Virus record (IMG/VR): IMGVR_UViG_3300043570_003617
Source of the DNA: a virus
Length of the DNA: 64,000 nucleotides
Direction: 5' to 3' (one strand)
Shown here one piece after another: positions 25,976-63,455 of the stretch. The first letter of the stretch is position 1, and every line of letters begins with the position of its first letter. Both the position numbers and the translations under genes were made by a program. The notes beneath the pieces were generated by a model. It made no database searches. It was not told the DNA's origin and saw nothing but the letters and a program-made list of their open reading frames with translations.

Positions 25976-25998
25976 GGTTATATATTAAATATATAAAG
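25976..25998. promoter_or_regulatory. palindromic divergent promoter region (GGTTATATATTAAATATATAAAG)
   Basis: Inverted arms TTATATAT / ATATATAA. The motif AATTTAATATATAAC reads on the minus strand (toward 24427..25950) and TTAAATATATAAAG on the plus strand (toward 26019). Confidence 0.45.
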
Positions 25999-26831: not shown

Positions 26832-26844
26832 TTTAAATAAATAT

Positions 26845-27530: not shown

Positions 27531-28230
27531 AAACTATTACTCAATTCTTGGTGTTAATAATATATCTGATGAAAAATCAATAAAAAAAGCTTATTATAAA
27601 TTATCATTTACTCACCACCCGGATAAGGGTGGAGACCCTGTTACTTTTGGTGAAATGACAGAAGCATATGATGTTCTCTGTGGTGAACAAAGAAAAGATT
27701 ATGATATGAAGAGTAAGTTTGGTAATAGTTACAACGAATATTTTGAATTATTTGATATTAATGTAGAGTTTGATTATAATAAAGAAAAGTCAAACTATGA
27801 AAAGTTCAAAAAGAATGAAGTTTTAGATATCTATTTAGATATAGATGAATCATTTGATGGTACTTTAGAATACGAAAGATGGGTTAAATGTAAAACTTGT
27901 GATGGTACAGGTAAAGACCTTTCTGCTAAAATTTTTATTAAAGATAATGATGGTAATATTCTAAGAACATTTGATGCTGATGACGGATGTGACTTTTGTG
28001 AAGGTTCTGGTAAAGACTATAAAGGTGATTCTTGTAACTTCTGTAATGGTAAAGGTAAAATAGGTTTAACACCTTGTAAAAAATGTAATGGTGAAAAACG
28101 AATTTTAGGTAAACAAAAACTATCAGGTATTAAATTAACCGGTGATGAAACCAAAATGGAGTCAATGGGTAATTGTTCTAAAGATGTAGCAGGAATGGTT
28201 GGTTATCTTTTATTAAAAAAGAAAGTTTAA
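27517..28230 (+). CDS. DnaJ-like protein (J domain plus CxxCxGxG zinc-finger repeats)
   Basis: YYSILGV...AYYKLSFTHHPDKGG (HPD motif). Four C-x-x-C-x-G-x-G-type units: CKTCDGTGK, CDFCEGSGK, CNFCNGKGK, CKKCNGEKR. Confidence 0.75.
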   Translation: MNLSKNYYSILGVNNISDEKSIKKAYYKLSFTHHPDKGGDPVTFGEMTEAYDVLCGEQRKDYDMKSKFGNSYNEYFELFDINVEFDYNKEKSNYEKFKKNEVLDIYLDIDESFDGTLEYERWVKCKTCDGTGKDLSAKIFIKDNDGNILRTFDADDGCDFCEGSGKDYKGDSCNFCNGKGKIGLTPCKKCNGEKRILGKQKLSGIKLTGDETKMESMGNCSKDVAGMVGYLLLKKKV

Positions 28231-37330: not shown

Positions 37331-38065
37331 ATGGATAAGAAAAAGGTATTGATTTTTACTGGAGCAGGAGTTTCAGCTGAAAGTGGCGTTGCTACTTTTA
37401 GAACTGGTGATGATGGTCTTTGGTATAATCATAAAGTAGAAGATGTTGCCACACCTAGTGGGTGGCGTAGAGATAGGGAAAAAGTTCTTAATTTCTACAA
37501 TATGCGACGTGCTCAAATGAAAGATGTTGAGCCAAATTTAGCGCATAAAATAATTGCTGAATTAGAAAGTGATTATGATGTTACTGTTGTAACTCAGAAT
37601 GTTGATGATTTACACGAAAGATCTGGTTCAACTAATGTTATTCACTTACATGGTGAGTTAACAAAGGCTAGAGGTTGTATGTATGACCACAAAACATCAC
37701 CATTAGATACAGTTATTGATGTGGGATATAATCCAATTAATATTGGAGATAAGTGCCCAACAACTGGTTCTCAACTAAGACCTCACATTGTTTGGTTTGG
37801 TGAAGATTTGGATCCACAATTTGTTGATATGGCTACAGTTGCTGCTAAAGAATGTGATGTTTGTATTGTTGTTGGAACTTCGATGAAAGTTTCTCCTGCT
37901 AATACAATTCCATTTTTGACTAAAGAAAGTGCTAAGATTTACTATGTGGATTTATCAGACCTTGATTTCTATGTACCAGAATATAGAACTGATTTATTTC
38001 ATCATTATCAAGAATTGGCATCAACTGGTATGGAAAAAGTTAAAAATAATTTAAAAAATATTTAA
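37331..38065 (+). CDS. Sir2-family NAD-dependent deacetylase/ADP-ribosyltransferase (sirtuin)
   Basis: Core motifs GAGVSAESGVATFR, TQNVDDLHERSG, IHLHGEL, IVWFGEDL and VVGTSMKV are all present. Confidence 0.75.
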   Translation: MDKKKVLIFTGAGVSAESGVATFRTGDDGLWYNHKVEDVATPSGWRRDREKVLNFYNMRRAQMKDVEPNLAHKIIAELESDYDVTVVTQNVDDLHERSGSTNVIHLHGELTKARGCMYDHKTSPLDTVIDVGYNPINIGDKCPTTGSQLRPHIVWFGEDLDPQFVDMATVAAKECDVCIVVGTSMKVSPANTIPFLTKESAKIYYVDLSDLDFYVPEYRTDLFHHYQELASTGMEKVKNNLKNI

Positions 38066-48100: not shown

Positions 48101-50023
48101 ATGACAAACATTTTAAATTTTATGGCAAATTATTGGTGGATTGCAGCAATTCTCCTTTGTGTAGTAATGTATAAATTCATTCTACGAGTATTTTTCGGAC
48201 TAGTTATTGTTCCAGAGGACAAGATTGGTTTAGTAACAAAAAAGTTCGTTCTTTTTGGAGAACACAAAGAACTTACAGGTGATCGTATTATCGCGGTAAA
48301 TGGTGAAGCTGGTTTTCAAGCAAAGATGCTTTCACCGGGTCTTCACTGGTGGATGTGGCCTTGGCAGTACAACATCGATATGCAAGGATTTGTTGTTATT
48401 CCAGAAGGACATATTGGATTGGTATCAGCAAAAGATGGTTTAGTACCAAAGACAGGACGTATCTTAGGTCGTAGAGTAGAATGTGAAAACTTCCAAGACT
48501 CTGTTACCTTCTTAACTAACGGTGGTCAAAAAGGTCGTCAATCATCTTTTATCACGAATGGTGTTTATAAAATCAACACACACTTATTCGAAGTTTCTAT
48601 TGTTAAACAAGCTACTATTCAAGAAAATATGGTGGGTGTAATCACATCATTAGATGGTGATCCATTAGAGAATGGTCAAATCGCTGGTAAAAATGTTGAA
48701 GGACACAATAACTTCCAAGACTTTGATAAATTCTTAGAGTTAGGTGGTAATCGTGGTTTACAACAACAAACTATCTTAGCTGGTACTTATAACTTAAATC
48801 CTTGGGCTGTTCAAGTAGAAGAAGTACAAATGACTGAGATTCCAATTGGTCACGTTGGAGTTGTTATCTCTTTCGTTGGTGAAGATGGTGTTGACGTAAC
48901 TGGTGTTAACTTCAAACACGGTAACTTAGTTGGTAAAGGACAAAAAGGTGTTTGGGCTGAACCGTTCGGACCTGGTAAATACCCAATCAACAAGTACACT
49001 AATAAGATTGAGTTAGTACCAACAACTAACCTTGTATTGAATTGGGCTAACGCTCGTACTGAGTCTCACAACTTAGATAAAGGACTTAATACAATCACTG
49101 TTCGTTCTAAAGATGGTTTCCCATTCAACTTAGATGTATCACAGATTATCCACATTCCAATGACAGAAGCACCTAAAGTGATTGCTCGATTTGGTAATAT
49201 GAATAACTTAGTATCTCAAGTTTTAGAACCAACAATTGGTAACTACTTCCGTAACTCGGCTCAAGACTCTGATGTAATCGCCTTCTTAACTACTCGTAAA
49301 GAACGTCAAGATTCAGCGAAACAACACATTTCTAAAGTATTAGATGAGTATAATGTTCACGCTGTTGATACTTTGATTGGTGATATCGTTCCACCACAAG
49401 AGTTGATGAAAACGTTAACTGATCGTAAGATTGCTCAAGAACAAGAAGTGACTTTTGAAACTCAAAAGAAAGCCGCTATCTCTCGTCAAACTTTTGAAAA
49501 AGAAACTGCCATCGCTGATATGCAGGGTGAGGTTGTAAAAGCTGACCAAGGTGTACAAATTGCTGAACGTCACGCTGATGCTTCTGTTAAGAAAGCTAAG
49601 GGTGATGCTGAATCTGTTAAAATTGCGGCTGAGGCAAGTGCTGAATCAACAAAGTTGAAAGCAGAAGCAGATGCTACAAGAACATCATTGATTGGTAACG
49701 CTGAGGCTGAGGCTATTCTTTCTAAGGGTAAATCTACAGCTGAGGCTTATAGATTGGCTGTTGACGCTATGGGTAAAGAAAACTTTACTACTTACAAAGT
49801 AACTGAAGAAATCGGCAGAAACAATGTGAAAATCATGCCAGACTTGTTAATCAACGGTGGTGGACAAAGTGGGAACGGTGCAATAGATGGATTATTGGGA
49901 GTTCAAATCTTAAACATGATGGGTAACCAAATTGGTAAGAGTATGAACGACACAACAGTGAAGTCAGTAACTACTGATGTACCTGTTGAAGATCTTTCTG
50001 TCCAAAAGAAAGACAAGAAGTAA
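48101..50023 (+). CDS. SPFH / band-7 (flotillin-like) membrane protein
   Basis: N-terminal transmembrane segment, then an SPFH domain, then an Ala/Glu-rich coiled coil (AEASAESTKLKAEADATRTSLIGNAEAEAIL) as in flotillin/YqiK. Confidence 0.75.
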   Translation: MTNILNFMANYWWIAAILLCVVMYKFILRVFFGLVIVPEDKIGLVTKKFVLFGEHKELTGDRIIAVNGEAGFQAKMLSPGLHWWMWPWQYNIDMQGFVVIPEGHIGLVSAKDGLVPKTGRILGRRVECENFQDSVTFLTNGGQKGRQSSFITNGVYKINTHLFEVSIVKQATIQENMVGVITSLDGDPLENGQIAGKNVEGHNNFQDFDKFLELGGNRGLQQQTILAGTYNLNPWAVQVEEVQMTEIPIGHVGVVISFVGEDGVDVTGVNFKHGNLVGKGQKGVWAEPFGPGKYPINKYTNKIELVPTTNLVLNWANARTESHNLDKGLNTITVRSKDGFPFNLDVSQIIHIPMTEAPKVIARFGNMNNLVSQVLEPTIGNYFRNSAQDSDVIAFLTTRKERQDSAKQHISKVLDEYNVHAVDTLIGDIVPPQELMKTLTDRKIAQEQEVTFETQKKAAISRQTFEKETAIADMQGEVVKADQGVQIAERHADASVKKAKGDAESVKIAAEASAESTKLKAEADATRTSLIGNAEAEAILSKGKSTAEAYRLAVDAMGKENFTTYKVTEEIGRNNVKIMPDLLINGGGQSGNGAIDGLLGVQILNMMGNQIGKSMNDTTVKSVTTDVPVEDLSVQKKDKK

Positions 50024-51125: not shown

Positions 51126-51539
51126 ATGAATAATTTTAAGGACTTTCAAGAAATTCTGCTTCTAGAAAAAAGAATCGACCAAATATCTTCAACTATTGAA
51201 GTTACTTTTGGATTTGATGTAATCAAAACAACACATGCTGATGATAGATCTGACTTTGCTAAAAGAGGATTAGGTGGTAATCAAAATCCTATTTCAAATG
51301 CTGAAATGTCTGAATTTGTTTCTTACTTTAAGAGGGATATATCTGAAGGTATTGCTACAGGTGATATAGTGCATCAAACAGAATTTGTTATTAGAAGTTT
51401 AGATAGAGAGTTATCTATGGCTATAATAGCGGAAGAAGTTACTCAAAACTATTGGAAGTTAGTTATTAAAACTGTTTTTAGAGAATCTGATGAACATAAA
51501 TTAAAAACTGGAGTAGACCAATTAATTTATGAAAAATAA
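51126..51539 (+). CDS. hypothetical protein (MNNFKDFQEI N-terminus)
   Basis: 137-aa ORF with promoter motif upstream. Confidence 0.55.
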   Translation: MNNFKDFQEILLLEKRIDQISSTIEVTFGFDVIKTTHADDRSDFAKRGLGGNQNPISNAEMSEFVSYFKRDISEGIATGDIVHQTEFVIRSLDRELSMAIIAEEVTQNYWKLVIKTVFRESDEHKLKTGVDQLIYEK

Positions 51540-51651: not shown

Positions 51652-51688
51652 AACAAAAAAACCTCAGATTTCTCTGAGGTTTTTTTGT
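51652..51688. terminator. bidirectional rho-independent terminator
   Basis: Stem ACCTCAGA / TCTGAGGT with loop TTTC, T-run after and A-run before. Serves convergent genes 51126..51539 and 51702..52799. Confidence 0.75.
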
Positions 51689-51701
51689 TAGAATTATAAT
51701 C

Positions 51702-52799
51702 TTAACCAACCGTTAAGAAGATCTTCCTTGACATGCGGTCTACTGAAAGAACTTTCACTTTGATATCTTGTCCCGGTGAGAACTTTTTACCAAGTTTCTC
51801 CATTTCTGAAGTGTGAATAAGACCAACTGTCTCATCATCAAGGTTTACTAAAGTACCAAAAGCTTTGGTGTCTTTAACGGTACCGTCAATGATTTGACCG
51901 TTTTTAATGTTATCCCAAAGAGTTTCACGAAGAATTTGAGTCAAGATAATTTTATCTTTAATCACTTCTTTGATGTAGAAATCAATTTCGAATCCTGGTG
52001 AGATTGAAGTTAATTTCTCAGCCCAATCTGGGTTAACATTTGCTTTGTGAATCATACCTGTAAGACATTCGTTGAATTCAACAAACACACCAAATGGTGT
52101 AGTTCCTGTAACGTGTCCTTGGTAAACTTGTCCGTGTTGAAGTTCTTTAACTGCTTCTGGGATAAGTGTTTGTAAATACTTACGTCTTGAAACGATGTAT
52201 GTACCTTCATTTTGAGAGTAAGATTCAATCATAACATTGAATGTCTGACCAACAATTGAATTTTGATTGTGTAGTTTATTGATACCAGCTAATGTGTTTG
52301 GCATAAATCCTGGAAGTTTAACACCACCGTGAGTTAATTCAACATCATACCCTGCTGGGTTAAGACTCTTAACATTTACCATAACTGGTTCACCTTCTTT
52401 AAGAGCTTTAAGATTAGCGTGAGCTCTTGATTCATAAAGAGAAGATACACTTCCTTTAATCATAAAAACATCTTGGTTAACATCTGTGATTAAAACATCA
52501 ATCATATCACCCATGTTGATATCTTTAAGATATTTAGTTTCACTGATTTTGTCATCTATGCGGATATCATCTTTATATCCTCTTACTCCAAAAACATATT
52601 GGTCAGCTGATTTACCAACATATTTTGCTGATACTACTTGTCCATTCTCTGGGATGCAAACTTCATCAAGATTGTATAATTTCAACATTTCTTGGTATTC
52701 CTTTGAATTTTTGTTTCTGCCACCTTTTGCAGAAAACTCTACATCATTAAAGATGTCGGCTAGATCTTCATTTCCGATTGTTTGTTTGTTCATATTCAT
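51702..52799 (-). CDS. ribosomal protein S1-like protein with multiple S1 RNA-binding domains
   Basis: At least three canonical S1 units: GEPVMVNVKSLNPAGYDVELTHGGVKLPGFMP, GQVYQGHVTGTTPFGVFVEFNECLTGMIHKANV and GQIIDGTVKDTKAFGTLVNLDDETVGLIHTSEM. Confidence 0.7.
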   Translation of the reverse strand: MNMNKQTIGNEDLADIFNDVEFSAKGGRNKNSKEYQEMLKLYNLDEVCIPENGQVVSAKYVGKSADQYVFGVRGYKDDIRIDDKISETKYLKDINMGDMIDVLITDVNQDVFMIKGSVSSLYESRAHANLKALKEGEPVMVNVKSLNPAGYDVELTHGGVKLPGFMPNTLAGINKLHNQNSIVGQTFNVMIESYSQNEGTYIVSRRKYLQTLIPEAVKELQHGQVYQGHVTGTTPFGVFVEFNECLTGMIHKANVNPDWAEKLTSISPGFEIDFYIKEVIKDKIILTQILRETLWDNIKNGQIIDGTVKDTKAFGTLVNLDDETVGLIHTSEMEKLGKKFSPGQDIKVKVLSVDRMSRKIFLTVG

Positions 52800-52854: not shown

Positions 52855-53259
52855 TTAAAAATTTCTTTTAATATTATTTCTAGTCATATAATCACGAACT
52901 CTTGCTGCTTCTTCAAACTTTTCTTGTTTGATTAGCTTATCAAGTTTAATGTTTAACTCTCTTGTGACTTCTTCTATTCCCTTTTCTTTAGAAAGTTGTT
53001 GAATATCATCAATAAAAGAACTGTAAAAATTCTCCATTTGTGATATGTCTACAAAATAAACAGGAGATGGAAGTGCCTTTTGTTGTTCAGACTTTTCACC
53101 TTCAGAAATTTCTTTTAATTTATCACTGCTTTTTAACTTTTTAATAAATTCATCAGTGAGTGCTGAGTTTTCTACTAAGTATTTAGCAAGGTGATAAGGT
53201 CTGTTTTTAAACATCTTTAATAAGATTACCAGACTTCTATATAATTCCTCGTTTTCCAT
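52855..53259 (-). CDS. UVR-domain-containing protein
   Basis: C-terminal KFEEAARVRDYM matches the UvrB/UvrC-type UVR motif (FExAAxLRD). Confidence 0.45.
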   Translation of the reverse strand: MENEELYRSLVILLKMFKNRPYHLAKYLVENSALTDEFIKKLKSSDKLKEISEGEKSEQQKALPSPVYFVDISQMENFYSSFIDDIQQLSKEKGIEEVTRELNIKLDKLIKQEKFEEAARVRDYMTRNNIKRNF

Positions 53260-53289
53260 ATTGTTTTTATAAAAAACTAACTTGATTGT

Positions 53290-53979
53290 TTATATTTTTT
53301 CAAATAAAATATTAAAGTAATACTCAAATGAGTATTGAGTAGATGGTTGTTCTTGATTAAATAACAATCTAATACTCGATCCATCAAAAGCTGTTTCAGT
53401 TTGTATTTTTTGAAACTTATTTGAATCAATTCCAATAGTTGAATTCCAAGTATTTTTGAATCTTAAAACATTTTGACTTCTTAGGTCTTTATATTTTATA
53501 TAAAGATCAATTTTACTTAATTTATATCTATTTGAAACATTTTTATCTATATATTCTCTAATTGTGGTATTTACATCATTTTTTCTAGTTAAAGATGCTT
53601 TCATTCCCTCAAATGTTCTATATCTCTTTAGATTAGCAAATAAGAAATTAGACAAAATATCATCTAGTTTTATATCTATTATCCACTTTGTACTATTCTC
53701 TTTTTGATAATCTGTTTGTGTTTCGTCAATATTCAATGAATGATTGATTTGTTTATCAACTGGTGCTGAATAAATTGGCGAATCGATTGATGTTTCTGCT
53801 GATAAATTAATTTGTTCACCACTTGTTCGTTGATAATAAATTATATTTTGATTTTCAATATAAATAGTGTCTTCAATTTCTAACATTTTAGATCCAAAGT
53901 AATTACTTTCTTCAGTCATATTGAAAGTACCATATGTTTTAGTATTGATATATTCAGATGATATATACGTTCTTCTCAT
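53290..53979 (-). CDS. hypothetical structural-module protein
   Basis: 229-aa ORF, co-transcribed downstream of the two giant minus-strand genes. Confidence 0.6.
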   Translation of the reverse strand: MRRTYISSEYINTKTYGTFNMTEESNYFGSKMLEIEDTIYIENQNIIYYQRTSGEQINLSAETSIDSPIYSAPVDKQINHSLNIDETQTDYQKENSTKWIIDIKLDDILSNFLFANLKRYRTFEGMKASLTRKNDVNTTIREYIDKNVSNRYKLSKIDLYIKYKDLRSQNVLRFKNTWNSTIGIDSNKFQKIQTETAFDGSSIRLLFNQEQPSTQYSFEYYFNILFEKI

Positions 53980-53981
53980 TA

Positions 53982-56900
53982 TTATAAACTTAAATTTTGG
54001 TTTGGGTTAATTAATATTCCAATATTAACATATTGACCTTCAGCTCCGGCAAATACCGTTGGATTAACTGTTGGATTAATAACCTGACTAGGTGTATTTA
54101 TTGAAGTTGATACATAGTAATCAAATTCCCAGGATGAAGAAAATATAAAGAAGTCTGTTGTAGTATATCCAAATTCATCTAACATGGGATATATAGATTT
54201 TTGATCTTTATTGTTTTTAAGTTTTAACACAGAACCGTCTTTATTAATTTTTCTTATTTTTCTTTCTTTCATTATTCCAAACTCAGATAAATCAACATCA
54301 AATATGTAGTTACCCACAGAAGCAGTAAATGTATTTTTTGAGAAAAGTTGTATATCATAAAAAACAGGCATATAATAACCACTAAATCTATAGATGATAT
54401 TGGATGTTATATTTTTACTACCACTATAGTTAATCATAGGCTTAGGAGTGTTTGAGTTTTTAGATATCTCTGCTGATATACTTATATTATTATAATCATT
54501 TAAATTGCTTAAATCATTAGATATTGATTCAATTGTTCTTGATGATTTTAAATTTTTTGGAGTACTAATAGGCTTTCTATCTAATGAATTATATTTCATA
54601 TTTACTTGCTCTGGTTTTTCACAAGTAATATAATAAGGAAGTTCTTGTATACTATCATAGTTATACTTACTTATAGAACCATCTTCTTCTATAATTATAT
54701 AGTTTAAATAATCAGTAAATTCATATTTATTAGTAATATTATTTATTGATTGTATAAAGTTATGAGCCGTTAATTTCTTGTTTAAATCATTATATAAACT
54801 ATCTCTATCTTTTTCTGATAAATTAGGAATTGTATTATCTGTTATAGTTATATTAATTAAAATATTTTTCCATTTTTTATTAATATAAATATTTATACCA
54901 TTCTCTAAAGTTGAAAATGATGAATTACTATTAATCATATAATATGAATCATTCATCTCTATTATAGGATTTATAGATGGTGTATAAATGATAGACGTGT
55001 CTGGTTTTAAACTATAAACTCTCGTCCAATCAGTTGACACACCTGGCTCATTTCCTGTTTCAGATCCATAAGGAATTACACCACCTGGTGTTGTTTTATA
55101 CAAAACATCATTATGTATTGAATAAGTAGATGATATTAATGTTGGATAATATTTACTAGGATTCCACAATCTAATAGGTTTCCATTTTGGAGAAGTTGAT
55201 TGTGTTTCTATCCAATAATAGAAATAAGCTGTCTTAGTAGAATTGACAAATGCTGATCTAAAGTCCGGTCTATGATGATTACTAGATGTCATTGACATAT
55301 AATATTTACCTTTAAAAAGAACCTTTTCACTAGCAGTATAACCAGTTGTATCTGATTTATATGGACTCCAAAAATCATCAGTTCCCCCAATTATAGAATC
55401 ATAAACATAATAATCTTCGTAATTGAAAACAACATCTTTATAGATATCATTTCCTATACCAGCACCAGGATAAGATGAAGTTGGGCTCCAAAATACATTT
55501 TTAGTTGGTTTATAATAATTCCAATATGGTTGATTATAAGGAGCAGATTTTGTTTTCTGAGTCATACTAGAAGTTAAATAAAAATTTGATGGATTTGATA
55601 CTATGTTATTAGCAACAGTCGATTTATATAAAATATCATCTATAACTACTATATCATTAACAACATAAGTTTTATCCATTTTCCAATCATCAAAAATAGT
55701 CCAATTCATTAAATTAGCAGATGATATTATATCACCACTTGAGGTAACAGACCATTCATTGTCAGATAATAAAATAGAAAATTTATATCCATCAAATCTA
55801 TTTGATGTTTTTAAATTAACACTTGGTTTACCTAAATCATCCTTTTTAATAGATTCAACATCATATATGAAAAATTTAATACCTTTAAATAAAGTAATAT
55901 TAGGAATAGATTTATCACCACTATTAAATAATGAGTATTTCTTTACATTTTTCTTTATTTTACCAGAATCAAAAGAAGCTTTTCTTTCAAAAAAGTATGA
56001 GAAGTAGTCAAAACTATAAGTAGCTGAAACTGTACCAACTGAGTATGTCCCTAAGTTTAAATATTTATCTAACTCAAATCTAAATGTATTATCAATTGAA
56101 CCATTTATATTATTCTCAACGTGTAACGAATGATGTATATAAGATGATGTTGATGAGTTTATTGTATAGAAGTAATCTAAATTTCTATCGACTCTTTTTG
56201 GATTTGGATCAAAAGGATTAACAGTTCTATTATAATTCTCAAATAATAAAGAGTTATTTAATAAGTAAGGCACGTCATTTACAGAGTTAGAGTTTTGAAA
56301 TCCCCATCTACAATAAACAGGATTTTTTCTCCATATTTGAGATAAGTCTCCATTTTCTATTTTAAATGTTTCGTAATTAGCTGTATACTCTGAGGCAACC
56401 GGTATATTAACTACATTATTTCTGTATGTAAAGTCATCATAATCTTTTGGATTTGAATTACTTAACAAATCAACAAGATACATCTTTGTCTCATCTGTTT
56501 TGGTTATTTCATACTTTTTTTCATACTCATATTTAGAATATTCAGTATCAACAATCTTTGTATCAAACTCTTTAATATCGGTAAATTTTAATTTGTAAAT
56601 TTTAAATTTCTTAGGTGGATTATTTTTATCAACGGCTACAAAAATAACTTTTTTAGTATAAGAAGGATCATTTTCATTAATCCAATAAATATAATTATTT
56701 TCACTAAACTGAAATGTGTAGTCACTATAAACTTTTATACTACCATCTGTTTTATCTTTTACCAAATTGTGAAACATACCATCTATTTCAATTATCCAAA
56801 TATCAGCAGATTCCCACTCATCTATAACAAAGTTTGTTAAATCATAGTTAATTAGTTTTTTATCAGATGTTATTAAACCAGTATTTTTATTTAATAAAGA

Positions 56901-58037
56901 TTGTTTTCCAACTAATTTTATATCAGAAATAATTCTCCATTTAGTAGATATTTGAGGTGTGAATTGTTGAGTAGTAACTGTTCCATTTGTTACTGATTGT
57001 AAAATATTATTACCAGTTTCTGTGAACTTTTCAACTTTATAATATTCTCCTAAATATTCAACATAGTAAACTTTATGGTCTAGAAATCCTTCCATGAAAG
57101 GATCACCAGTTGGTGAGTAAAGTATATTATTTTCTAATATAACAGCATCTGTTTTTATAAATGGTGTTATATAAGGTGATAAGGTTTTTACTTGAATCAT
57201 ATCATCTAAATAAAAGCCATAATATCTATTCATGGAATATTTTCTAAATGAGTCAGAATTGGCGGGCGTATCATCAAAGAGAAAGGATAGGTTAAGAATA
57301 TTTGGAAAAACAATAGAGTTGTTTTGATATCCATCAAATACCATTTTTTCAAACTCAAATATTTCTTTTTCTTCTTCATAAACATTTTCAAAGAACATTG
57401 ATTTACTAGTATATCCGGAATTTTTATAATCAATTCCGTTCCATTTTGTGAATTCTAAATTATCAAAACTCATTTCAAACGGAGTTAAAGGAAAAAAAGA
57501 ATTATTATTAAAATTTCTATCTAACCATTCTCCTAAATAAGAAAATTTTGTTAAATCAAATATTTTAACTGTTTTGAAATTTTGAAAAATAGAAGATTTA
57601 ATATTCTTTCTAGTTATTTTACCAATTCCCGGACCATCAACTCTAAATATTATGAATTTTTTAGGTAGGTTATTAGGTGAGATATAAAGAGGCGCAAAGT
57701 ATTCAAATTCTTCTTCGTAATTTTTATTATTTACAATATTTCTAGCACCATATTGATATAACTCATCATATTGTGATGCAAAATCATCACTCATTGAATC
57801 AACATCATTATCATATTTAATATGATAAGCAGTATCTGTTGGTAAGTCTCCATAAAAATAACTTACTAACTCATCATAGTAATTATCTTTTATAAAAGAA
57901 ACATTTTTATATTTACTAGCTGATAATTCTTCTTTTGATTCTATACTATCTAAAGAAAGACTATAGCTACTACCCACCACAATTTTGATGTTAGTAGTTA
58001 ATCCCACATTTGTACTTAAAATACCAAAACTTTTCAC
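53982..58037 (-). CDS. giant 1351-aa hypothetical virion protein
   Basis: Uninterrupted 4 kb ORF, Tyr/Trp/Asn-rich. Lies 2 nt upstream of the next gene on the same strand. Confidence 0.85.
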   Translation of the reverse strand: MKSFGILSTNVGLTTNIKIVVGSSYSLSLDSIESKEELSASKYKNVSFIKDNYYDELVSYFYGDLPTDTAYHIKYDNDVDSMSDDFASQYDELYQYGARNIVNNKNYEEEFEYFAPLYISPNNLPKKFIIFRVDGPGIGKITRKNIKSSIFQNFKTVKIFDLTKFSYLGEWLDRNFNNNSFFPLTPFEMSFDNLEFTKWNGIDYKNSGYTSKSMFFENVYEEEKEIFEFEKMVFDGYQNNSIVFPNILNLSFLFDDTPANSDSFRKYSMNRYYGFYLDDMIQVKTLSPYITPFIKTDAVILENNILYSPTGDPFMEGFLDHKVYYVEYLGEYYKVEKFTETGNNILQSVTNGTVTTQQFTPQISTKWRIISDIKLVGKQSLLNKNTGLITSDKKLINYDLTNFVIDEWESADIWIIEIDGMFHNLVKDKTDGSIKVYSDYTFQFSENNYIYWINENDPSYTKKVIFVAVDKNNPPKKFKIYKLKFTDIKEFDTKIVDTEYSKYEYEKKYEITKTDETKMYLVDLLSNSNPKDYDDFTYRNNVVNIPVASEYTANYETFKIENGDLSQIWRKNPVYCRWGFQNSNSVNDVPYLLNNSLLFENYNRTVNPFDPNPKRVDRNLDYFYTINSSTSSYIHHSLHVENNINGSIDNTFRFELDKYLNLGTYSVGTVSATYSFDYFSYFFERKASFDSGKIKKNVKKYSLFNSGDKSIPNITLFKGIKFFIYDVESIKKDDLGKPSVNLKTSNRFDGYKFSILLSDNEWSVTSSGDIISSANLMNWTIFDDWKMDKTYVVNDIVVIDDILYKSTVANNIVSNPSNFYLTSSMTQKTKSAPYNQPYWNYYKPTKNVFWSPTSSYPGAGIGNDIYKDVVFNYEDYYVYDSIIGGTDDFWSPYKSDTTGYTASEKVLFKGKYYMSMTSSNHHRPDFRSAFVNSTKTAYFYYWIETQSTSPKWKPIRLWNPSKYYPTLISSTYSIHNDVLYKTTPGGVIPYGSETGNEPGVSTDWTRVYSLKPDTSIIYTPSINPIIEMNDSYYMINSNSSFSTLENGINIYINKKWKNILINITITDNTIPNLSEKDRDSLYNDLNKKLTAHNFIQSINNITNKYEFTDYLNYIIIEEDGSISKYNYDSIQELPYYITCEKPEQVNMKYNSLDRKPISTPKNLKSSRTIESISNDLSNLNDYNNISISAEISKNSNTPKPMINYSGSKNITSNIIYRFSGYYMPVFYDIQLFSKNTFTASVGNYIFDVDLSEFGIMKERKIRKINKDGSVLKLKNNKDQKSIYPMLDEFGYTTTDFFIFSSSWEFDYYVSTSINTPSQVINPTVNPTVFAGAEGQYVNIGILINPNQNLSL

Positions 58038-58067
58038 TATTTAAAATTATTTTATTTTATTTGACTT

Positions 58068-61000
58068 TTATTGACTAGTAAAACTAACTGATTCTGATGG
58101 AACAGCATATTCAACTGATGTTGCCATAACTACTTTACTTCTATTTATGTTAAATTTAATACTAAATGTAAAAGGTCTATTTTCTGCTTCATTTTCTAAA
58201 AAGAATTTAATTTTCTTAACGTGTTTAACTGTATTACTTGATCCATTTAAGTTAATAAAACTATAGTTTGGTCCTTCTTGATTTGAATCTAACGAATTCA
58301 TTTTAAAGTAGATATTTATAGGTATTATAGTTGAATTAACATCTCCTGAGTTTATAGTTTTAACTTTATCAGAATTTGTTTCTACTATTGTTTCTAAATT
58401 AGGAACGACTGGATGAATAGTTGTTAAAAGTTTAGTTGTTGATGATCCTGAACCATCTTCATCTATCCATTTAGATGAATCCAACAAAGATTTATTACTA
58501 CCTATAAATGATAAAATAGAAGTTTCGTTATATCCTAAATTATATTCTGTTGAACTTAGTACATCAGTAAGTGAGTTAGTTGGTGGTGTATCACTTGAAG
58601 AATCTGTAGTAAATAAATTACCAATATTTTCCGTTAATTTTGTAACTGATGTTTCTAATACAGAGTCATAATTTACTGTCCAAATATATTGATTGTTTAA
58701 TTGTGTTCTTGTTTGTCCAGATATATCTGATGTTATTAACTCATTTTGGTCACTAACCCAGAAAGTTTGAGGAGCTCCTGTGTTATAAACATCTGGATTT
58801 TGTAAATAAGTTCTGCCTGATAATAAACCAAGTTCTGAACTCGTTGACTTATTTCTAAATTTAACAATAAAGTCTTTAATAACATAGATGCTATTAGAAT
58901 AAACTCTACCAGATGGTGCTCCTACTCCAGTAAATGGAGTTAAATAATTCTCACATTCAATATTAAATGTGGTTTCACTTCCATTACCGACAACATATTC
59001 ATTATTACCTCTAAGAATAACAACTTCAAGTTCACCTTTAGCTCTTTTAATTTTCTCTTCAAGTGAACTAATTCTTTCTTGTAAAGACTTTAAGTAAGTA
59101 TATAAATCTTGTGCTGTTCCATTCTCGTCTTTGAACCCCGAAAGTATTTTATTACTATCGTGATGAAAAGTAAGATTATTAACAACAACTGTATCTGATA
59201 AGTGTTCATCTAAACCTTTAGCAGATAATTCTTGATTCATTTTTATTTTTAAGTCTTCACTAGTTGCTGCCTTTAATATAAAGTCGGTGTCATTAAGAAC
59301 ATTATTTAAGTCAGTTGGAAAATCAACAGTTAAAATTTCAGACCAATCAGATTCAGTAGGAGACTCTGGCCAACCTACTTCTGAAATTGACTTTATCCTC
59401 ATTTCAACTTTCTCATTAGGTTGAATTGCAATATCAATTTGATTAATATTTGGAGTATCAGCTTTTTCAATATCTTCTATCTGCCAAGTATAAGCACTTG
59501 TAGCTGGATCATATGTTCTTTTTCTGGCATCTGTCTTAAATTCAACCCAGTTAGAGAAAGCCGCTTTTGTTTGAGTGCTATCTACTGCAAATGTTTCAAC
59601 AGGTGGTTCAGTACCATCTTTAGAAACATATCTATATTGAATTCTAAATTGAACAATCTCTTGTGGTCTTGTTCCTCTAGTTACAATAGCATCTGGCATT
59701 GTCCAGAATCCTCTGACTCTAAATTTAGGATCAACTTTATTATTCGGATTTTTAGATAAATCTATAATTTCTTGTGTTACTGTAGAAAGTAATTTAGATC
59801 TACTATCTTTTTTTCTAATCAATTCTTCAGATTCTAATGATGCTTGTTTTTTAGCTGATTCTGATTGAAATCTAACAAACTTAATTTTGTTATTTTTACT
59901 AACTAAAGCATCAGATATTTGTTCAATTTCTGACTTCAAAGTCATTTGATAATTATGTTTTTGTTTAATTAAATTTGAATCTGGTGTATCTGTTAAGTGT
60001 TTATTAATTTGAACAACTTTGAAGTTTGTTAAATTAAGAGTTGGTGCAATTGGTGTTCCAGCTAATTTATTAGGAGTTTTTTTAGCAACTAAATCCTGAA
60101 GAACTTCACCATAATCATAAACATAATCAATATAAAATTGTTCCATTGTTAAACCATCTTCAGGTGCTGTTGAATCTAATGTTAAATCATTAGTCCAAAA
60201 TCCAGTACCTAAACTAAAATTTCTTGCTAATAAATTATTATCAGCGTTTAATGGTTTAATAAAAATAACATCTCTTTCATTATAACCAACACTAATCTTT
60301 ACAGATTTTGCATAAATAACTGGTGAGTAAATTTTAATAGTTGATATTCCAACTGGGATAGGTTCCATACCTTCAACTCTTTCTAGTCTAACTCTTGGGT
60401 TTGATTCAGAGGTTGAAACTTCAATTACTTTATATCTTGTTGATGTTTTATTAGAATTAACAATTATTTCACTACCAATAGTTAATTGTTGAATTTGATT
60501 ATTAGATCTTACAACATAATTTAGAGTATCTAATACATAAAAAAGTTTTCTATTTAATCTATCTTCTTGTATTCTAAGAACACTAAAAACACCATCATAT
60601 AAAAGTTCATTAGGATCTAAATCAAATACTTGCTCATCAAATTTAGGATTAAGTGGCTCAACAACACCTGGTGTTGTATTATGCCAATTTTCAAAATCTG
60701 TTATATCAATAGATGAATTGCCTCTAAATAAAGTATTAAAACTATTTAAGGCTGATTGACCAAGTGCTGTGAAAGCACCTGAAGCATCTTTTGCAAAATC
60801 AACAATATATCTTCTTGATTGAATTTTTCTTACATTATCTTCAATCTTACCAGTTAAATCCAATTCAATAGAAACAATAGGACTTAATAAACTATCAAAA
60901 AACCAGTTATTCAAAGCTTTAAATTTAGTAATTGATCCAATTGATCCGACATCAGTTGGTTCTTTATTTAAATCTACAGTTATAATTTTCTTATAAGTAT

Positions 61001-61271
61001 TTTGATTCGTTGTTTGAATCAAAGCACCAGCAGCATCAATACTATAAAGTGAATTAATATTATTGTTAAGTCTATCTATCTCACCTTTCAACGATGTGAA
61101 AGAAGGCACAGTATAGTTTCTTAATACTCCGTTTTCATCATAAATTTGAATATTTACAGATGGGTTTTGAGTTGTTGCTAATGAATTTATTTTACTTAAA
61201 ATATCTACGATATTCTTGTTAAATGAAATGACCTGGTCAGCTACGGCCGGAAATGAACTTTGAATAGGCAT
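58068..61271 (-). CDS. giant 1067-aa hypothetical virion protein (baseplate or tail candidate)
   Basis: Uninterrupted 3.2 kb ORF, first gene of the minus-strand structural operon, with a promoter motif upstream. Confidence 0.85.
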   Translation of the reverse strand: MPIQSSFPAVADQVISFNKNIVDILSKINSLATTQNPSVNIQIYDENGVLRNYTVPSFTSLKGEIDRLNNNINSLYSIDAAGALIQTTNQNTYKKIITVDLNKEPTDVGSIGSITKFKALNNWFFDSLLSPIVSIELDLTGKIEDNVRKIQSRRYIVDFAKDASGAFTALGQSALNSFNTLFRGNSSIDITDFENWHNTTPGVVEPLNPKFDEQVFDLDPNELLYDGVFSVLRIQEDRLNRKLFYVLDTLNYVVRSNNQIQQLTIGSEIIVNSNKTSTRYKVIEVSTSESNPRVRLERVEGMEPIPVGISTIKIYSPVIYAKSVKISVGYNERDVIFIKPLNADNNLLARNFSLGTGFWTNDLTLDSTAPEDGLTMEQFYIDYVYDYGEVLQDLVAKKTPNKLAGTPIAPTLNLTNFKVVQINKHLTDTPDSNLIKQKHNYQMTLKSEIEQISDALVSKNNKIKFVRFQSESAKKQASLESEELIRKKDSRSKLLSTVTQEIIDLSKNPNNKVDPKFRVRGFWTMPDAIVTRGTRPQEIVQFRIQYRYVSKDGTEPPVETFAVDSTQTKAAFSNWVEFKTDARKRTYDPATSAYTWQIEDIEKADTPNINQIDIAIQPNEKVEMRIKSISEVGWPESPTESDWSEILTVDFPTDLNNVLNDTDFILKAATSEDLKIKMNQELSAKGLDEHLSDTVVVNNLTFHHDSNKILSGFKDENGTAQDLYTYLKSLQERISSLEEKIKRAKGELEVVILRGNNEYVVGNGSETTFNIECENYLTPFTGVGAPSGRVYSNSIYVIKDFIVKFRNKSTSSELGLLSGRTYLQNPDVYNTGAPQTFWVSDQNELITSDISGQTRTQLNNQYIWTVNYDSVLETSVTKLTENIGNLFTTDSSSDTPPTNSLTDVLSSTEYNLGYNETSILSFIGSNKSLLDSSKWIDEDGSGSSTTKLLTTIHPVVPNLETIVETNSDKVKTINSGDVNSTIIPINIYFKMNSLDSNQEGPNYSFINLNGSSNTVKHVKKIKFFLENEAENRPFTFSIKFNINRSKVVMATSVEYAVPSESVSFTSQ

Positions 61272-61291: not shown

Positions 61292-61307
61292 TTATATATT
61301 AAATTCT
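61292..61307 (-). promoter_or_regulatory. putative promoter (minus strand GAATTTAATATATAAG)
   Basis: Recurring motif ~22 nt upstream of the minus-strand ATG at 61271. Confidence 0.45.
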
Positions 61308-61625: not shown

Positions 61626-63455
61626 ATGATTGAACAACTAAAAGAACAAATTATTAAAGCGAATGACGCTTATAGATTGGGACAACCAATCATATCTGAT
61701 ACTAAGTATGACCAATTAGTTGAAGAATTATCTTTATTATCACCAGATGATGAATTACTTACAAAAGTAGGTGTTGAAATCACTGATGAAACTCGTAAAG
61801 GTAAACTACCTATTGAAATGGCTTCGATGAATAAAATCAAATCAATGAATGATGTTGATGATTGGTCTCGTCTTAAAGGTATTTCTAAAAAAGAAATGGT
61901 TATCATCACACCTAAATATGATGGACTTTCATTATGTGTTAATGAAATGACATCTGAAGCTTGGACTCGTGGTGATGGTGAGTTTGGTCAAAAATCAAGT
62001 GAACATTACTCTTTAATTCAAAATCACTTAAACTTAGAAAAAGATTCATTTAGATTTACTTATGGTGAAGTAATGATTCCTAAGCAAGTTTTTATTGACA
62101 AATTCTCTACTGACTTTGCAAATCCTCGTAACTTAGTTGCCGGTTTGTTAAACTCTAAAACTGTAAGTGAGTCTTTAAAAGATTGTCAGTATATTAAATA
62201 CGGTGCCGTTTGTAATACAATATTCGACACTAAACAAGAAGTTCTTAACGAACTTAATAAAGGTCAAAAAATTAAAGTACAATATTATATATGTGAACTT
62301 GGTGATTTATCAGAAGGTTTACTTATTGAATTATTCCATAAATTTTCAACTGAATTTGAAATTGATGGTTTAATCATCGAACTTAATGATTTAAGTTTAC
62401 AAAATAAATTAGGTCGCGAGACTTCATCAAACAATCCTGTTTGGGCTCGCGCATTCAAACACCCAAGTTTTGAACAATCTGCTGAAACAGATGTTATCGG
62501 AATTTCTTGGAATATCTCTAAACAAGGTTTATTAAAACCAATTCTACACATCACTCCTGTTAAATTAGATGGTGTTACAGTGTCTAACGTGACTGGTAAC
62601 AACGCCAGATTCGTAAAAGACTTAGGACTTGGTGTAGGAGCTAAAGTTGTCGTAAAACGCTCTGGAATGGTTATTCCAATCATTGCTGATGTTATCACTC
62701 CAGTTGAATTTATTCAACCTACAATCGAAGGTGTTGAAGTAGATTGGAATGAAGCAGGTATCGAGTTAATTACTTTAACTGAAACTGACGACCAAAAGTT
62801 AAAAAAGATTGTTGCTTTCTTTGAAATATTAGAATCTGACAATGTGTCAGAAGGAGTTATCACTCAATTATGGGAAGCTGGTTACAAAACAATCAAAGAT
62901 ATTCTTACTCTTAAAACTTCTGACTTAGAGAAGATTGACCGTTTTGGTAAGAGAAAAGCTGATATTGTTTATAAGTCTATTCAAAAGTCTGTTAGTAATG
63001 TCCAGTTGTCTAAACTACAACATGCTACAGGTATCTTCAAAGGATTAGGTTCTAAGAAATTAGTTCTTTTAGAAGACTTCAAAACTAAACCTAGTGTTGA
63101 CCAAGTAATGTCGATTGAAGGATTTGCTGAAGTATCTGCTAAATCATACATTGACTCATATGACATATTCTTTGATTTTATTAAAGATTTACCTGTCACA
63201 ATTGTCGAAAAAGTTCAAGCTGTTAAAGTTGGCACAGACCTTGAGGGTAAATCATTTGTCTTTACCGGAGTTCGTAGACCAGATTTAGAATCTGATATTG
63301 AATCTCGTGGTGGAAAAATTGGTTCTGGTGTATCAAAAACAACAACTTACCTTGTAATGAAGTCGATTGGTAGTGGTTCTTCTAAAGAGAAGAAAGCCAT
63401 TGACTTGGGTGTTGAAGTGATTACAGTAGAACAATTAGAAAAATTATTAAACTAA
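61626..63455 (+). CDS. ligA: NAD-dependent DNA ligase (LigA)
   Basis: Adenylation motif KYDGLS (KxDG), OB/HhH architecture, and a C-terminal BRCT-like segment GKSFVFTGVRRPDLESDIESRGGKIGSGVSKTTTYLV. 609 aa. Confidence 0.85.
   Translation: MIEQLKEQIIKANDAYRLGQPIISDTKYDQLVEELSLLSPDDELLTKVGVEITDETRKGKLPIEMASMNKIKSMNDVDDWSRLKGISKKEMVIITPKYDGLSLCVNEMTSEAWTRGDGEFGQKSSEHYSLIQNHLNLEKDSFRFTYGEVMIPKQVFIDKFSTDFANPRNLVAGLLNSKTVSESLKDCQYIKYGAVCNTIFDTKQEVLNELNKGQKIKVQYYICELGDLSEGLLIELFHKFSTEFEIDGLIIELNDLSLQNKLGRETSSNNPVWARAFKHPSFEQSAETDVIGISWNISKQGLLKPILHITPVKLDGVTVSNVTGNNARFVKDLGLGVGAKVVVKRSGMVIPIIADVITPVEFIQPTIEGVEVDWNEAGIELITLTETDDQKLKKIVAFFEILESDNVSEGVITQLWEAGYKTIKDILTLKTSDLEKIDRFGKRKADIVYKSIQKSVSNVQLSKLQHATGIFKGLGSKKLVLLEDFKTKPSVDQVMSIEGFAEVSAKSYIDSYDIFFDFIKDLPVTIVEKVQAVKVGTDLEGKSFVFTGVRRPDLESDIESRGGKIGSGVSKTTTYLVMKSIGSGSSKEKKAIDLGVEVITVEQLEKLLN

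What the first reader, a model, noticed from the sequence alone, without database searches (positions are those of the whole stretch)
51702..52799. Multi-domain ribosomal protein S1-like gene, possibly part of a three-gene translation module
The 365-aa protein carries at least three canonical S1 RNA-binding domains and is shorter than the cellular six-domain S1. Together with bS21 (26845..27036) and an L7/L12 C-terminal-domain-like protein (45971..46441), the window encodes three ribosome-associated protein homologs. The conserved promoter box frequently abuts start codons, implying leaderless or very short-leader mRNAs. This combination suggests a coordinated strategy to redirect the host ribosome toward phage messages, which would be unusual as an ensemble.
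Basis: partly seen in the sequence, partly recalled or inferred. Interest (0 to 1): 0.8.

Follow-up and report, generated by a model that had tools for sequence, protein, structure and literature searches.

The report
Huge-phage four-domain ribosomal protein S1
A very large phage of Bacteroidota carries a shortened copy of ribosomal protein S1, plus an S21 copy and a lone L7/L12 C-terminal domain, probably to steer host ribosomes onto its own Shine-Dalgarno-less messages; this gene set has already been reported for huge phages.

Summary
The gene is real. It lies at 51702..52799 on the minus strand and encodes 365 aa. It is a truncated bS1 with a short N-terminal helix-loop-helix and four OB/S1 domains, collinear with D1-D4 of cellular S1. 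D5-D6 are missing. Only D3 and D4 are canonical by Pfam.

bS21 (26845..27036) is confirmed and is Bacteroidia-type, with Tyr54. The L12-like protein (45992..46441) has a genuine L7/L12 C-terminal-domain fold but no stalk-binding N-terminal domain.

The window belongs to the Mahaphage clade. Its closest relatives are LR756502 and LR745206. Al-Shayeb et al. 2020 already reported S1, S21 and L7/L12 in such phages, the redirect-translation model, and the lack of SD in S1-carrying phages.

The three genes sit in three separate transcription units, so they are not an operon-like module, but their order is conserved in relatives.

SD motifs are essentially absent (2 of 60 genes) and leaders are A-rich.

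A TAATATATA box is strongly enriched upstream of genes. It lies 4-5 nt from the ATG in 5-6 cases, so leaderless mRNAs are plausible but unproven. Leaderless mRNAs do not need S1.

New here: the family is a deep lineage of about 365 aa that keeps a Bacteroidia-type N-terminal ribosome-anchor motif.

Verdict: new member of a known kind, moderate interest.

The parts
51702..52799 (-). Gene for the 365-aa truncated bS1 ('mini-bS1'): N-terminal anchor plus D1-D4
52665..52799 (-). Residues 1-45: predicted helix (11-19), loop, helix (33-41). The motif L13-x3-F17-N-D-x2-F22 aligns with the F. johnsoniae bS1 anchor helix FLANFNWHNF.
52440..52649 (-). D1, a divergent OB fold (residues 51-120)
52179..52397 (-). 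D2, an OB fold with the cellular-D2-like F-M-P-N-T-L and V-S-R-R signatures (residues 135-207)
51924..52142 (-). D3, a canonical S1 RNA-binding domain (residues 220-292). It is the most conserved domain in the family.
51705..51908 (-). D4, a canonical S1 RNA-binding domain (residues 298-365) and the best Pfam stretch
51652..51689 (-). Strong intrinsic terminator (17-bp stem followed by a T-run) 13 nt after the S1 stop codon. It is usable in both directions for the convergent genes.
52855..61271 (-). Four co-directional upstream genes (1067 aa, 1351 aa, 229 aa, and a 134-aa UVR-motif protein) that probably form one transcription unit with S1. The synteny is conserved in LR756502.
61293..61301 (-). 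Promoter-like box TAATATATA 21 nt upstream of the 1067-aa gene. It is the nearest box upstream of S1 and is conserved at the same place in LR756502.
26845..27036 (+). bS21 homolog of 63 aa, Bacteroidia type with Tyr54. It has no SD and no N-terminal extension. It is the second gene of a run that starts at 26019.
25987..25995 (+). One-mismatch box (AAATATATA) 23 nt upstream of gene 26019, which heads the run that contains bS21
45992..46441 (+). 149-aa protein: an L7/L12 C-terminal-domain fold (residues 4-83) followed by a four-helix extension (85-148). It has no L12 N-terminal domain.
10481..10489 (+). Box 4 nt from the ATG of gene 10494 (candidate leaderless mRNA). The same arrangement occurs at 19084-19092, 20799-20807 and 21526-21534 (+). 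At 32609-32617 (-) the spacing is 5 nt.

Best explanation
This is a phage-encoded, truncated ribosomal protein bS1. It descends from a Bacteroidota-type bS1 and keeps the N-terminal ribosome anchor and domains D1-D4.

Shown:
- Homology, architecture and strong conservation.
- Membership of a large, deep phage family.
- Absence of SD sites, and A-rich unstructured leaders.
- A co-encoded Bacteroidia-type bS21.

Inferred:
- During infection the protein docks on the host 30S subunit at the uS2/uS8 site in place of, or beside, host bS1.
- Its conserved RNA-binding domains D3-D4 then capture the A/U-rich, SD-less leaders of phage mRNAs and feed them into the mRNA channel.
- Phage bS21 keeps the anti-SD sequestered and supports bS1 function, as bS21 does in Flavobacterium johnsoniae.
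- The gene is probably transcribed as the last gene of a five-gene unit from a TAATATATA-type promoter that also precedes tail-fibre-like genes. This would make it a middle or late function, when translation demand is highest.
- The L12-CTD protein is a separate, soluble binder of translational GTPases rather than a stalk component.
For: Architecture and homology:
- Pfam S1 E=5e-23.
- Collinear alignment to rpsA models and to solved bS1 chains.
- hhalign to Bacteroidia S1 (73-364 to 145-448) and to E. coli S1 (94-364 to 62-346), probability 97.6.
- AF2 model with four OB folds. Its best Foldseek hit is ribosome-bound E. coli bS1, E=5e-23.

Anchor:
- The profile of family residues 1-120 has F. 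johnsoniae bS1 (9zcd_A) as its best PDB hit, aligned from residue 1 (E=0.008).
- Window F17 and F22 align with F15 and F20 of FLANFNWHNF. That helix is seen bound next to uS8 and uS2 (PMC13000457).
- 20 of 111 distant family representatives carry F[DNS]W[DE], the same motif as Bacteroidia bS1.
- In E. coli the N-terminal helix Phe5/Phe9 is essential for ribosome binding (PMC4288201).

Conservation:
- More than 120 clusters at 68% identity or above, all 352-373 aa.
- 130 clusters at the 50% level with E<=1e-30; nearly all of the best 150 representatives are 345-420 aa.
- Invariant RNA-binding-type residues in D3 and D4.

Initiation context:
- 2 of 60 genes have an SD core, and leaders are A-rich.
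- The S1 leader is unstructured, -2.3 kcal/mol.

Partner:
- bS21 with Tyr54, closest to the F. johnsoniae chain 7jil_z.
- S1 and S21 occur together in all five Mahaphages larger than 630 kb.
- In F. johnsoniae, bS1 stimulates SD-less initiation, and this depends on bS21 (PMC9976891, PMC13000457).

Sufficiency of D1-D4: the two C-terminal OB domains of E. coli S1 are dispensable for growth (abstract of bioRxiv 10.1101/2021.10.20.465233).

Expression:
- Elevated NNC codon use, 0.43 against a median of 0.19.
- Terminator directly after the gene.
Against: - There is no direct evidence of ribosome binding.
- The anchor is altered. The first aromatic residue of the i/i+4 pair is Leu13, not Phe, and the Trp of the Bacteroidia motif is Asp19. 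In E. coli, F5A alone abolishes binding.
- The N-terminal alignment is marginal (E=0.008), and residues 1-27 have pLDDT below 50.
- The N-terminus is the least conserved part of the deep family.
- The best NCBIfam score is to the clostridial IspH-S1 fusion model. [quoted passage not shown]
- The host is inferred, not shown.
- Promoter, operon and timing are inferred from motifs only.
Confidence: 0.55

Rival explanations
1. Extraribosomal RNA-binding protein. The four-domain protein works off the ribosome as an RNA chaperone, an mRNA protector or a cofactor of a phage RNA enzyme. Host S1 plays such roles for T4 RegB and Q-beta replicase, and I recall that the four-domain S1 of Firmicutes is not a stable ribosome component.
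For: - The best NCBIfam scores are to the clostridial IspH/S1 fusion and to the 391-position Firmicutes-type S1 model.
- The N-terminal region is the least conserved part of the family and has low pLDDT.
- Al-Shayeb et al. themselves leave open 'on or off the ribosome'.
Against: - The protein is collinear from residue 1 with F. johnsoniae bS1, and its F-N-x3-F motif is at the anchor position.
- The Bacteroidia-type FDW motif occurs in 20 of 111 distant members.
- D1 and D2, the ribosome-binding half of cellular S1, are retained rather than lost.
- It co-occurs with bS21.
Confidence: 0.22
2. Competitive plug or host shut-off factor. The protein occupies the bS1 site but, lacking D5-D6, fails to support host mRNAs. 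Phage messages that are leaderless or have short unstructured leaders are still translated.
For: - In E. coli, overproduced N-terminal S1 fragments displace native S1, stop bulk translation and leave leaderless mRNA translation running (PMC3296737).
- 5-6 genes have the promoter-like box 4-5 nt from the ATG.
- The S1 leader and other phage leaders are unstructured and A-rich.
Against: - D3 and D4, the RNA-binding domains, are the most conserved parts of the family. A mere plug would not need them.
- In E. coli an S1 lacking the two C-terminal domains still supports growth.
- Most phage genes here have leaders or are internal to operons.
Confidence: 0.15
3. Virion-associated protein. The S1-like protein is made with structural proteins, packaged, and injected with the DNA so that it acts at the onset of infection.
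For: - Distant family members lie between a baseplate-hub gene (Phage_base_V) and a T4 gp13-like gene.
- In the window the gene ends a run that starts with two very large proteins of unknown function, and it shares the box type found before tail-fibre-like genes.
- Chen et al. raised the same idea for bS21.
Against: Gene neighbourhood alone does not show packaging. The large upstream proteins have no structural annotation. No capsid-targeting signal is known.
Confidence: 0.06

Closest known systems
rpS1-like proteins of huge phages (Al-Shayeb et al. 2020, Nature; genomes LR756500-LR756504 and LR745206). UniProt viral entries A0A8D9CG03, A0A7S9STL2 and A0A6J5NIG6 look like further members.
   Same: - Same gene family: 69% and 66% identity to LR756502 and LR745206.
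- Same neighbourhood: synteny from 40989 to 63455.
- bS21 and the L12-like gene are in the same order.
- Same proposed role, redirection of initiation in SD-poor genomes.
- BFVD holds viral proteins of 373-385 aa, two annotated as 30S ribosomal protein S1 and one as an S1-motif protein, at Foldseek E down to 5e-47.
   Different: This is a different genome: the best nucleotide match is 78% over 9% of a 20-kb query. The published work did not, as far as I could read, define the four-domain architecture or the N-terminal anchor. It called confirmation of 'true' rpS1 difficult.
Cellular bS1 of Bacteroidia (F. johnsoniae bS1, PDB 9zcd chain A, 591 aa)
   Same: - N-terminal helix-loop-helix with the pattern F-[ND]-x3-[FY].
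- D1-D4 collinear with the cellular protein.
- Works in an SD-less initiation system that relies on A-rich leaders and on bS21.
   Different: - Lacks D5, D6 and the C-terminal tail (365 aa against 591 aa).
- Only about 25% identity.
- The Trp of the anchor motif is replaced by Asp, and Phe11 by Leu.
- Encoded by a phage, at the end of a run of large genes of unknown function.
E. coli bS1 and its truncations (the N-terminal fragments S1-106 and S1-194, and S1 lacking the two C-terminal domains)
   Same: - The domain order D1-D4 aligns with E. coli residues 62-346.
- The N-terminal helix has hydrophobic/aromatic residues at i and i+4 followed by acidic residues (FAQLFEES against LADIFNDV).
- A D1-D4 protein is sufficient for growth in E. 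coli.
   Different: E. coli initiation uses SD pairing, and its S1 binds uS2 through Phe5 and Phe9. Here the first aromatic residue is Leu. The truncations were made in the laboratory and do not occur naturally.
Phage bS21 of Bacteroidetes phages (Chen et al. 2022) and phage bS21 and bL12 domains (Mizuno et al. 2019)
   Same: - bS21 with an aromatic residue at position 54, closest to Flavobacteriia bS21.
- bL12 C-terminal domains embedded in unrelated phage proteins.
- Viral bS21 and bL12 were found in E. coli ribosomes.
   Different: The bS21 here is not in the terminase/capsid block described by Chen et al. It follows an EEP-family nuclease gene. The L12-CTD protein has its own four-helix C-terminal extension.

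Membership tests
Ribosomal protein bS1 | Tandem S1/OB-fold domains, with RNA-binding S1 domains in the D3-D4 positions | tested here: met
   Pfam PF00575 E=5e-23 with two passing stretches. AF2 gives four OB folds. Foldseek top hits are bS1 chains.
Ribosomal protein bS1 | Divergent D1-D2 pair, collinear with the ribosome-binding half of cellular S1 | tested here: met
   Collinear alignments to the TIGR00717 model and to E. coli, M. smegmatis, F. johnsoniae and Bacteroidia S1. The D2 signatures FMPNTL and VSRR are conserved.
Ribosomal protein bS1 | N-terminal anchor helix with aromatic residues that binds uS2 (and uS8 in Bacteroidia) | tested here: inconclusive
   A helix at 11-19 is predicted, but with low confidence. 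The N-terminal profile's best PDB hit is F. johnsoniae bS1, aligned from residue 1, E=0.008. F17 and F22 are conserved, but Leu13 replaces the first Phe and Asp19 replaces Trp. The FDW motif is present in 20 of 111 distant members.
Ribosomal protein bS1 | Full complement of domains: six in Proteobacteria and Bacteroidia | tested here: not met
   The alignment ends at the D4 boundary and the protein stops there. It is 365 aa against 591 and 557 aa. It also scores far below every NCBIfam rpsA equivalog cutoff.
Ribosomal protein bS1 | Physical, exchangeable association with the 30S subunit and stimulation of initiation | not testable with these tools
   This needs ribosome fractionation, cryo-EM and in vitro initiation assays.
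Ribosomal protein bS21 (Bacteroidia type) | S21 fold and sequence, with an aromatic residue at position 54 that stacks on A1534 to sequester the anti-SD | tested here: met
   Pfam gives 39 bits against a cutoff of 27. The alignment of residues 1-57 to F. johnsoniae bS21 is ungapped, with Y54 aligned to Y54. The role of Tyr54 is from PMC13000457 and PMC9723584.
Ribosomal protein bS21 (Bacteroidia type) | Extended SD upstream of rpsU, used for autoregulation in Flavobacteriales | tested here: not met
   The upstream sequence is aataatttaaataaatatATG, with no SD. The feature is described in PMC9976891. Its absence is expected for a phage copy that escapes host autoregulation.
Ribosomal protein bL12 (L7/L12) | C-terminal domain fold (beta-alpha-alpha-beta-alpha-beta) with the conserved K-x3-[IV]-K ... 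L-G-L-K-[ED]-x-K surface | tested here: met
   The family profile hits only bL12 CTDs, best E=1.2e-5. The AF2 model has pLDDT 87.6. The Foldseek top 7 are L7/L12 CTDs. K16, V20, K21, L31 and K35 are invariant.
Ribosomal protein bL12 (L7/L12) | N-terminal dimerisation and bL10-binding domain plus a flexible hinge | tested here: not met
   The CTD-like fold starts at residue 4. What follows is a four-helix extension unrelated to the L12 NTD. Matches cover only positions 57-105 of the 125-position TIGR00855 model.

The most novel reading that the evidence does not exclude
The phage encodes a matched pair, a mini-bS1 with a remodelled anchor and its own Bacteroidia-type bS21. Together they would convert part of the host 30S pool into phage-specialised initiation particles. 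The altered anchor (Leu13, Asp19) would bind well only beside the phage bS21. The D1-D4 arm would prefer the short A/U-rich leaders produced from TAATATATA promoters. The orphan L12-CTD protein would capture IF2, EF-Tu or EF-G for these particles. This would be a virus-built specialised ribosome in an SD-blind host.
Probability: 0.15. Interest if true: 0.75.

Novelty: new member of a known kind. Interest (0 to 1): 0.38.

Why it matters
Bacteroidia ribosomes ignore Shine-Dalgarno sequences. How they pick start sites is an active question. Work from 2023 to 2026 on Flavobacterium johnsoniae points to cooperation between bS1 and bS21 on A-rich leaders.

A widespread, strongly conserved phage family supplies a minimal bS1 (anchor plus D1-D4), and the same phages carry their own bS21. 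This is a natural experiment on which parts of bS1 are needed for SD-less initiation. It also bears on whether viruses can bias mRNA choice by swapping exchangeable ribosomal proteins.

For annotation, the N-terminal motif and the D1-D4 collinearity give a way to tell true bS1 derivatives from generic S1-domain proteins in phage genomes. The original huge-phage paper called that distinction difficult.

Tried and rejected
- Single-sequence search of residues 1-137 against PDB gave only chance hits. A family profile was needed.
- The GTDB genome scan was meant to find the nearest cellular S1. The pattern-based scan was biased towards cyanobacterial S1. The only close hits were short contigs in MAGs labelled Flavobacteriales, Muiribacterium and Saccharofermentanales (63%, 63% and 46% identity). 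One of them, L003, has the phage gene order, so I take them to be misbinned phage DNA.
- PHROGs and Pfam on the large genes co-directional with S1 gave nothing usable beyond one family of unknown function. Whether S1 sits in a structural operon in this window therefore stays open.
- The sigma-70 consensus scan is no better than shuffles in this AT-rich DNA: 73 sites against 78 expected.
- The one-mismatch count of the 10-mer box over the whole window is not enriched (57 against 51). The enrichment appears only for exact copies and for position relative to genes.
- Rfam found nothing in the window, and there are no tRNAs.
- Alternative genetic code was rejected. Code 11 gives 96.5% coding density with ORFs up to 2425 aa.
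- Host contamination or a bacterial origin of the window was rejected on synteny with complete phage genomes and on gene content.
Full report
OBSERVATION

The ORF 51702..52799 exists, but on the minus strand. It starts with ATG and encodes 365 aa. Pfam finds the S1 domain at E=5e-23, with only two stretches passing on their own; the best is 299-364. Full-length rpsA models of NCBIfam align to residues 18-363. TIGR00717 covers its positions 17-341 of 516. All scores are far below the equivalog cutoffs.

Solved bS1 chains align collinearly. E. coli residues 58-344 match query 90-362, and M. smegmatis 35-361 match query 52-363. Profile comparisons map residues 94-364 onto E. coli 62-346 and residues 73-364 onto Bacteroidia S1 145-448. 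That span is D1 through D4.

An AlphaFold2 model built from 37 family members (pLDDT 77.5) shows four OB folds at 55-117, 138-204, 225-290 and 303-364. Two short N-terminal helices lie at 11-19 and 33-41. The model's best PDB matches are ribosome-bound E. coli bS1 chains, at E=5e-23. The protein therefore has four S1-type domains, two of them canonical, and it lacks D5-D6.

THE OTHER TWO GENES

bS21 (26845..27036) passes the Pfam cutoff. Its only PDB hits are the F. johnsoniae chain 7jil_z and one other bS21 chain, 9i5v_9, which I take to be Bacteroidota. The alignment is ungapped over residues 1-57 and includes Tyr54. Tyr54 is the residue that stacks on A1534 to sequester the anti-SD in Bacteroidia (PMC13000457, PMC9723584).

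The L12-like protein is weak as a single sequence: 21.9 bits against a cutoff of 25.9. The family evidence is stronger. 73 homologs were found, many with precomputed PF00542 hits. A family profile hits only bL12 C-terminal domains, best E=1.2e-5. The AF2 model (pLDDT 87.6) has the beta-alpha-alpha-beta-alpha-beta topology at residues 4-83, followed by a four-helix extension. The top seven Foldseek hits are L7/L12 CTDs.

The family-invariant residues K16, V20, K21, L31 and K35 align with E. coli K65, I69, K70, L80 and K84. From memory, that is the factor-binding face of bL12. There is no N-terminal dimerisation and bL10-binding domain, so this protein is not a stalk protein in the usual sense. 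Gene callers start it at the ATG at 45992, giving 149 aa.

WHERE THE WINDOW COMES FROM

The S1 protein is 69% and 66% identical to ORFs in LR756502 (642 kb) and LR745206 (635 kb). It is 41-42% identical to ORFs in LR756501, LR756503 and LR756504, and 31.5% identical to one in LR756500. Synteny with LR756502 runs from 40989 to 63455. The five genomes larger than 630 kb are the largest Mahaphage genomes of Al-Shayeb et al. 2020, which were predicted to infect Bacteroidetes.

The exact protein occurs on 20 JGI contigs with the same neighbours and is already named 'ribosomal protein S1' there. The window has 28.9% GC and is 96.5% coding under code 11. It has no tRNA genes and no Rfam hits.

WHAT IS ALREADY KNOWN

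Al-Shayeb et al. list S1, S21 and L7/L12 among huge-phage genes. [quoted passage not shown] They report that phages with possible rpS1 rarely have SD sequences, and they add that true rpS1 is hard to confirm. Their supplementary GenBank file annotates the LR745206 bS21, with a Flavobacteriaceae best hit.

Mizuno et al. 2019 described phage bS21 and bL12 domains and found them in E. coli ribosomes. Chen et al. 2022 described bS21 phages of Bacteroidetes, with late expression of the gene. BFVD holds viral proteins of 373-385 aa that match the model, two of them named 30S ribosomal protein S1. The ensemble is therefore not new.

WHAT THIS ANALYSIS ADDS

(1) The family is large, deep and constant in length. 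All of the best 120 clusters (90% level) are 352-373 aa. Among clusters at the 50% level, 130 have E<=1e-30. Nearly all of the best 150 are 345-420 aa, with identity falling to about 32%. The first hits of cellular length appear at about 30% identity. This is an old phage lineage, not a recent capture from a host.

(2) The N-terminus looks like a bS1 ribosome anchor. A profile of residues 1-120 has F. johnsoniae bS1 (9zcd_A) as its best PDB hit. The alignment starts at residue 1, with E=0.008. Window F17-N-D-V-E-F22 lies over F15-N-W-H-N-F20 of FLANFNWHNF. That helix is seen on the 30S next to uS8 and uS2.

Twenty of 111 distant full-length representatives carry F[DNS]W[DE], for example VEFDWEAYENEDY. 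This matches Bacteroidia bS1, for example EFDWDAYEKGDT. The pattern also resembles the E. coli N-terminal helix, where Phe5 and Phe9 are essential for binding uS2.

There are caveats. Leu13 replaces the first Phe, and Asp19 replaces the Trp. Residues 1-27 have low model confidence. The N-terminus is the least conserved region of the deep family.

(3) The initiation context fits Bacteroidia. Only 2 of 60 genes have an SD core of 4 nt or more, fewer than random intragenic sites would give. Upstream regions are 45-70% A, against 35% for the window as a whole, and they are depleted in G. The S1 leader is unstructured.

(4) S1 and bS21 co-occur in all five Mahaphages larger than 630 kb. The L12-like gene occurs in the two closest relatives. 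Order and spacing match those in the window.

In F. johnsoniae, added bS1 raises initiation on an SD-less mRNA. The N-terminal density of bS1 is lost when bS21 is missing. The authors propose that bS1-bS21 interactions matter for SD-less initiation.

The phage bS21 has no SD. The host rpsU in Flavobacteriales uses an extended SD for autoregulation. The phage copy should therefore escape that control.

TRANSCRIPTION SIGNALS

TAATATATA occurs 15 times, against 6.3 expected. Thirteen copies lie wholly in the 3.5% of the window that is non-coding, and all 15 point towards a gene on the same strand. Thirteen of 60 genes have an exact copy within 50 nt upstream, against 0.7% of random sites. With one mismatch allowed the figures are 21 of 60 against 4.4%.

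Distances to the ATG fall into two classes: 4-5 nt (five exact copies, six with one mismatch) and 17-29 nt. The box, and both spacing classes, recur in LR756502, including upstream of the ortholog of gene 58068.

If transcription starts about 5 nt after the box, the first class gives mRNAs that begin at AUG. In the second class that position is a purine in 7 of 8 cases, which is suggestive only. Leaderless mRNAs are therefore plausible for genes 10494, 19097, 20812, 21539 and 32603, but they are not shown.

In E. coli, leaderless mRNAs do not need bS1. The S1 gene is thus better explained by the majority class of leadered and operon-internal genes.

THE S1 TRANSCRIPTION UNIT

S1 has no box in the 55-nt gap upstream of it. 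The nearest box on its strand is at 61293-61301. Between that box and S1 lie four co-directional genes, and the scan found only weak terminator-like sites there, inside coding sequence. A 17-bp-stem terminator follows the S1 stop codon. S1 is probably the last gene of a five-gene unit.

bS21 is the second gene of a run that begins with a one-mismatch box. The L12-like gene is the second gene of a third run. So there are three units, not one module.

Distant family members lie between baseplate-hub and gp13-like genes. This hints at expression together with structural genes.

S1 has the second-highest NNC codon fraction among genes of at least 100 codons. This is consistent with high expression.

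MECHANISM AND CONFIDENCE

That this is a phage homolog of bS1 comprising an anchor and D1-D4 is close to certain. That it docks on host 30S and promotes initiation on phage SD-less leaders together with bS21 is the best-supported reading, at about 0.55.

The rivals are an extraribosomal RNA-binding role (0.22), a competitive plug that shuts off host translation (0.15) and a packaged protein (0.06).

The finding is a new member of a known kind. Its value lies in giving a concrete, testable minimal bS1/bS21 pair for the SD-blind Bacteroidia ribosome.

Noticed in passing
window 51550-51566 and 51585-51601 (+): An exact 17-mer, AGTATCTRAATCGTTCC, occurs twice, 35 nt apart, in the gap between the convergent gene 51126..51539 and S1. 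The first copy forms the loop of a hairpin. There are no other copies in the window. Its function is unknown.
   Followed up: partly
window 10470-10530 and 19073-19133 (+): Genes 10494 and 19097 share about 55 nt: the promoter-like box, then CAAT, then the first 11 codons (MIK[KR]Y..FIKE). The rest of the two proteins is unrelated. This could be a duplicated promoter and 5'-end cassette, possibly tied to leaderless initiation.
   Followed up: partly
window 25979-25995, 37267-37283, 40972-40987: Overlapping or back-to-back copies of the TAATATATA-type box lie on opposite strands between divergent genes. They look like bidirectional promoter regions.
   Followed up: no
window 48101..50023 (+): A 640-aa SPFH/Band-7 protein has the strongest NNC codon bias in the window (0.53 against a median of 0.19) and 78% identity to its LR756502 ortholog. 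It is probably very highly expressed.
   Followed up: no
window 52855..53259 (-): A 134-aa protein with a UvrB/UvrC (UVR) motif lies directly upstream of S1 here and in LR756502. A 152-aa ORF occupies the same position in the MAG contig L003. It is a possible functional partner of S1.
   Followed up: no
window 26019..28230 (+): The run that contains bS21 also encodes an endonuclease/exonuclease/phosphatase-family protein with a hydrophobic N-terminus, a zinc-ribbon protein and a DnaJ-like protein (J domain plus a CXXCXGXG region).
   Followed up: no
window 3188..19078 (+): A cluster that looks like tail fibres or adhesins: a 2425-aa protein with NHL repeats, a collagen-repeat protein (15829..17019) and a Laminin_G_3/ConA-like protein (17021..19078). 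Several of these genes are preceded by the TAATATATA box.
   Followed up: no
L002, L003, L004 (GTDB genome contigs): Contigs binned into MAGs labelled Flavobacteriales, Candidatus Muiribacterium and Saccharofermentanales carry this phage S1 family. L003 also has the phage gene order. They are most likely huge-phage DNA misbinned into bacterial genomes.
   Followed up: partly
L059 8001-9194; L060 3399-4553: Distant members of the about-365-aa S1 family (with an FDW-type N-terminus) lie between a baseplate-hub gene (Phage_base_V) and a T4 gp13-like gene on other phage contigs.
   Followed up: partly
window 37331..38065, 2106..2861, 22606..24354, 61626..63455: Auxiliary genes: a Sir2-family protein, PhoH, an SbcC/Rad50-like ATPase and an NAD-dependent DNA ligase with a BRCT domain.
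   Followed up: no
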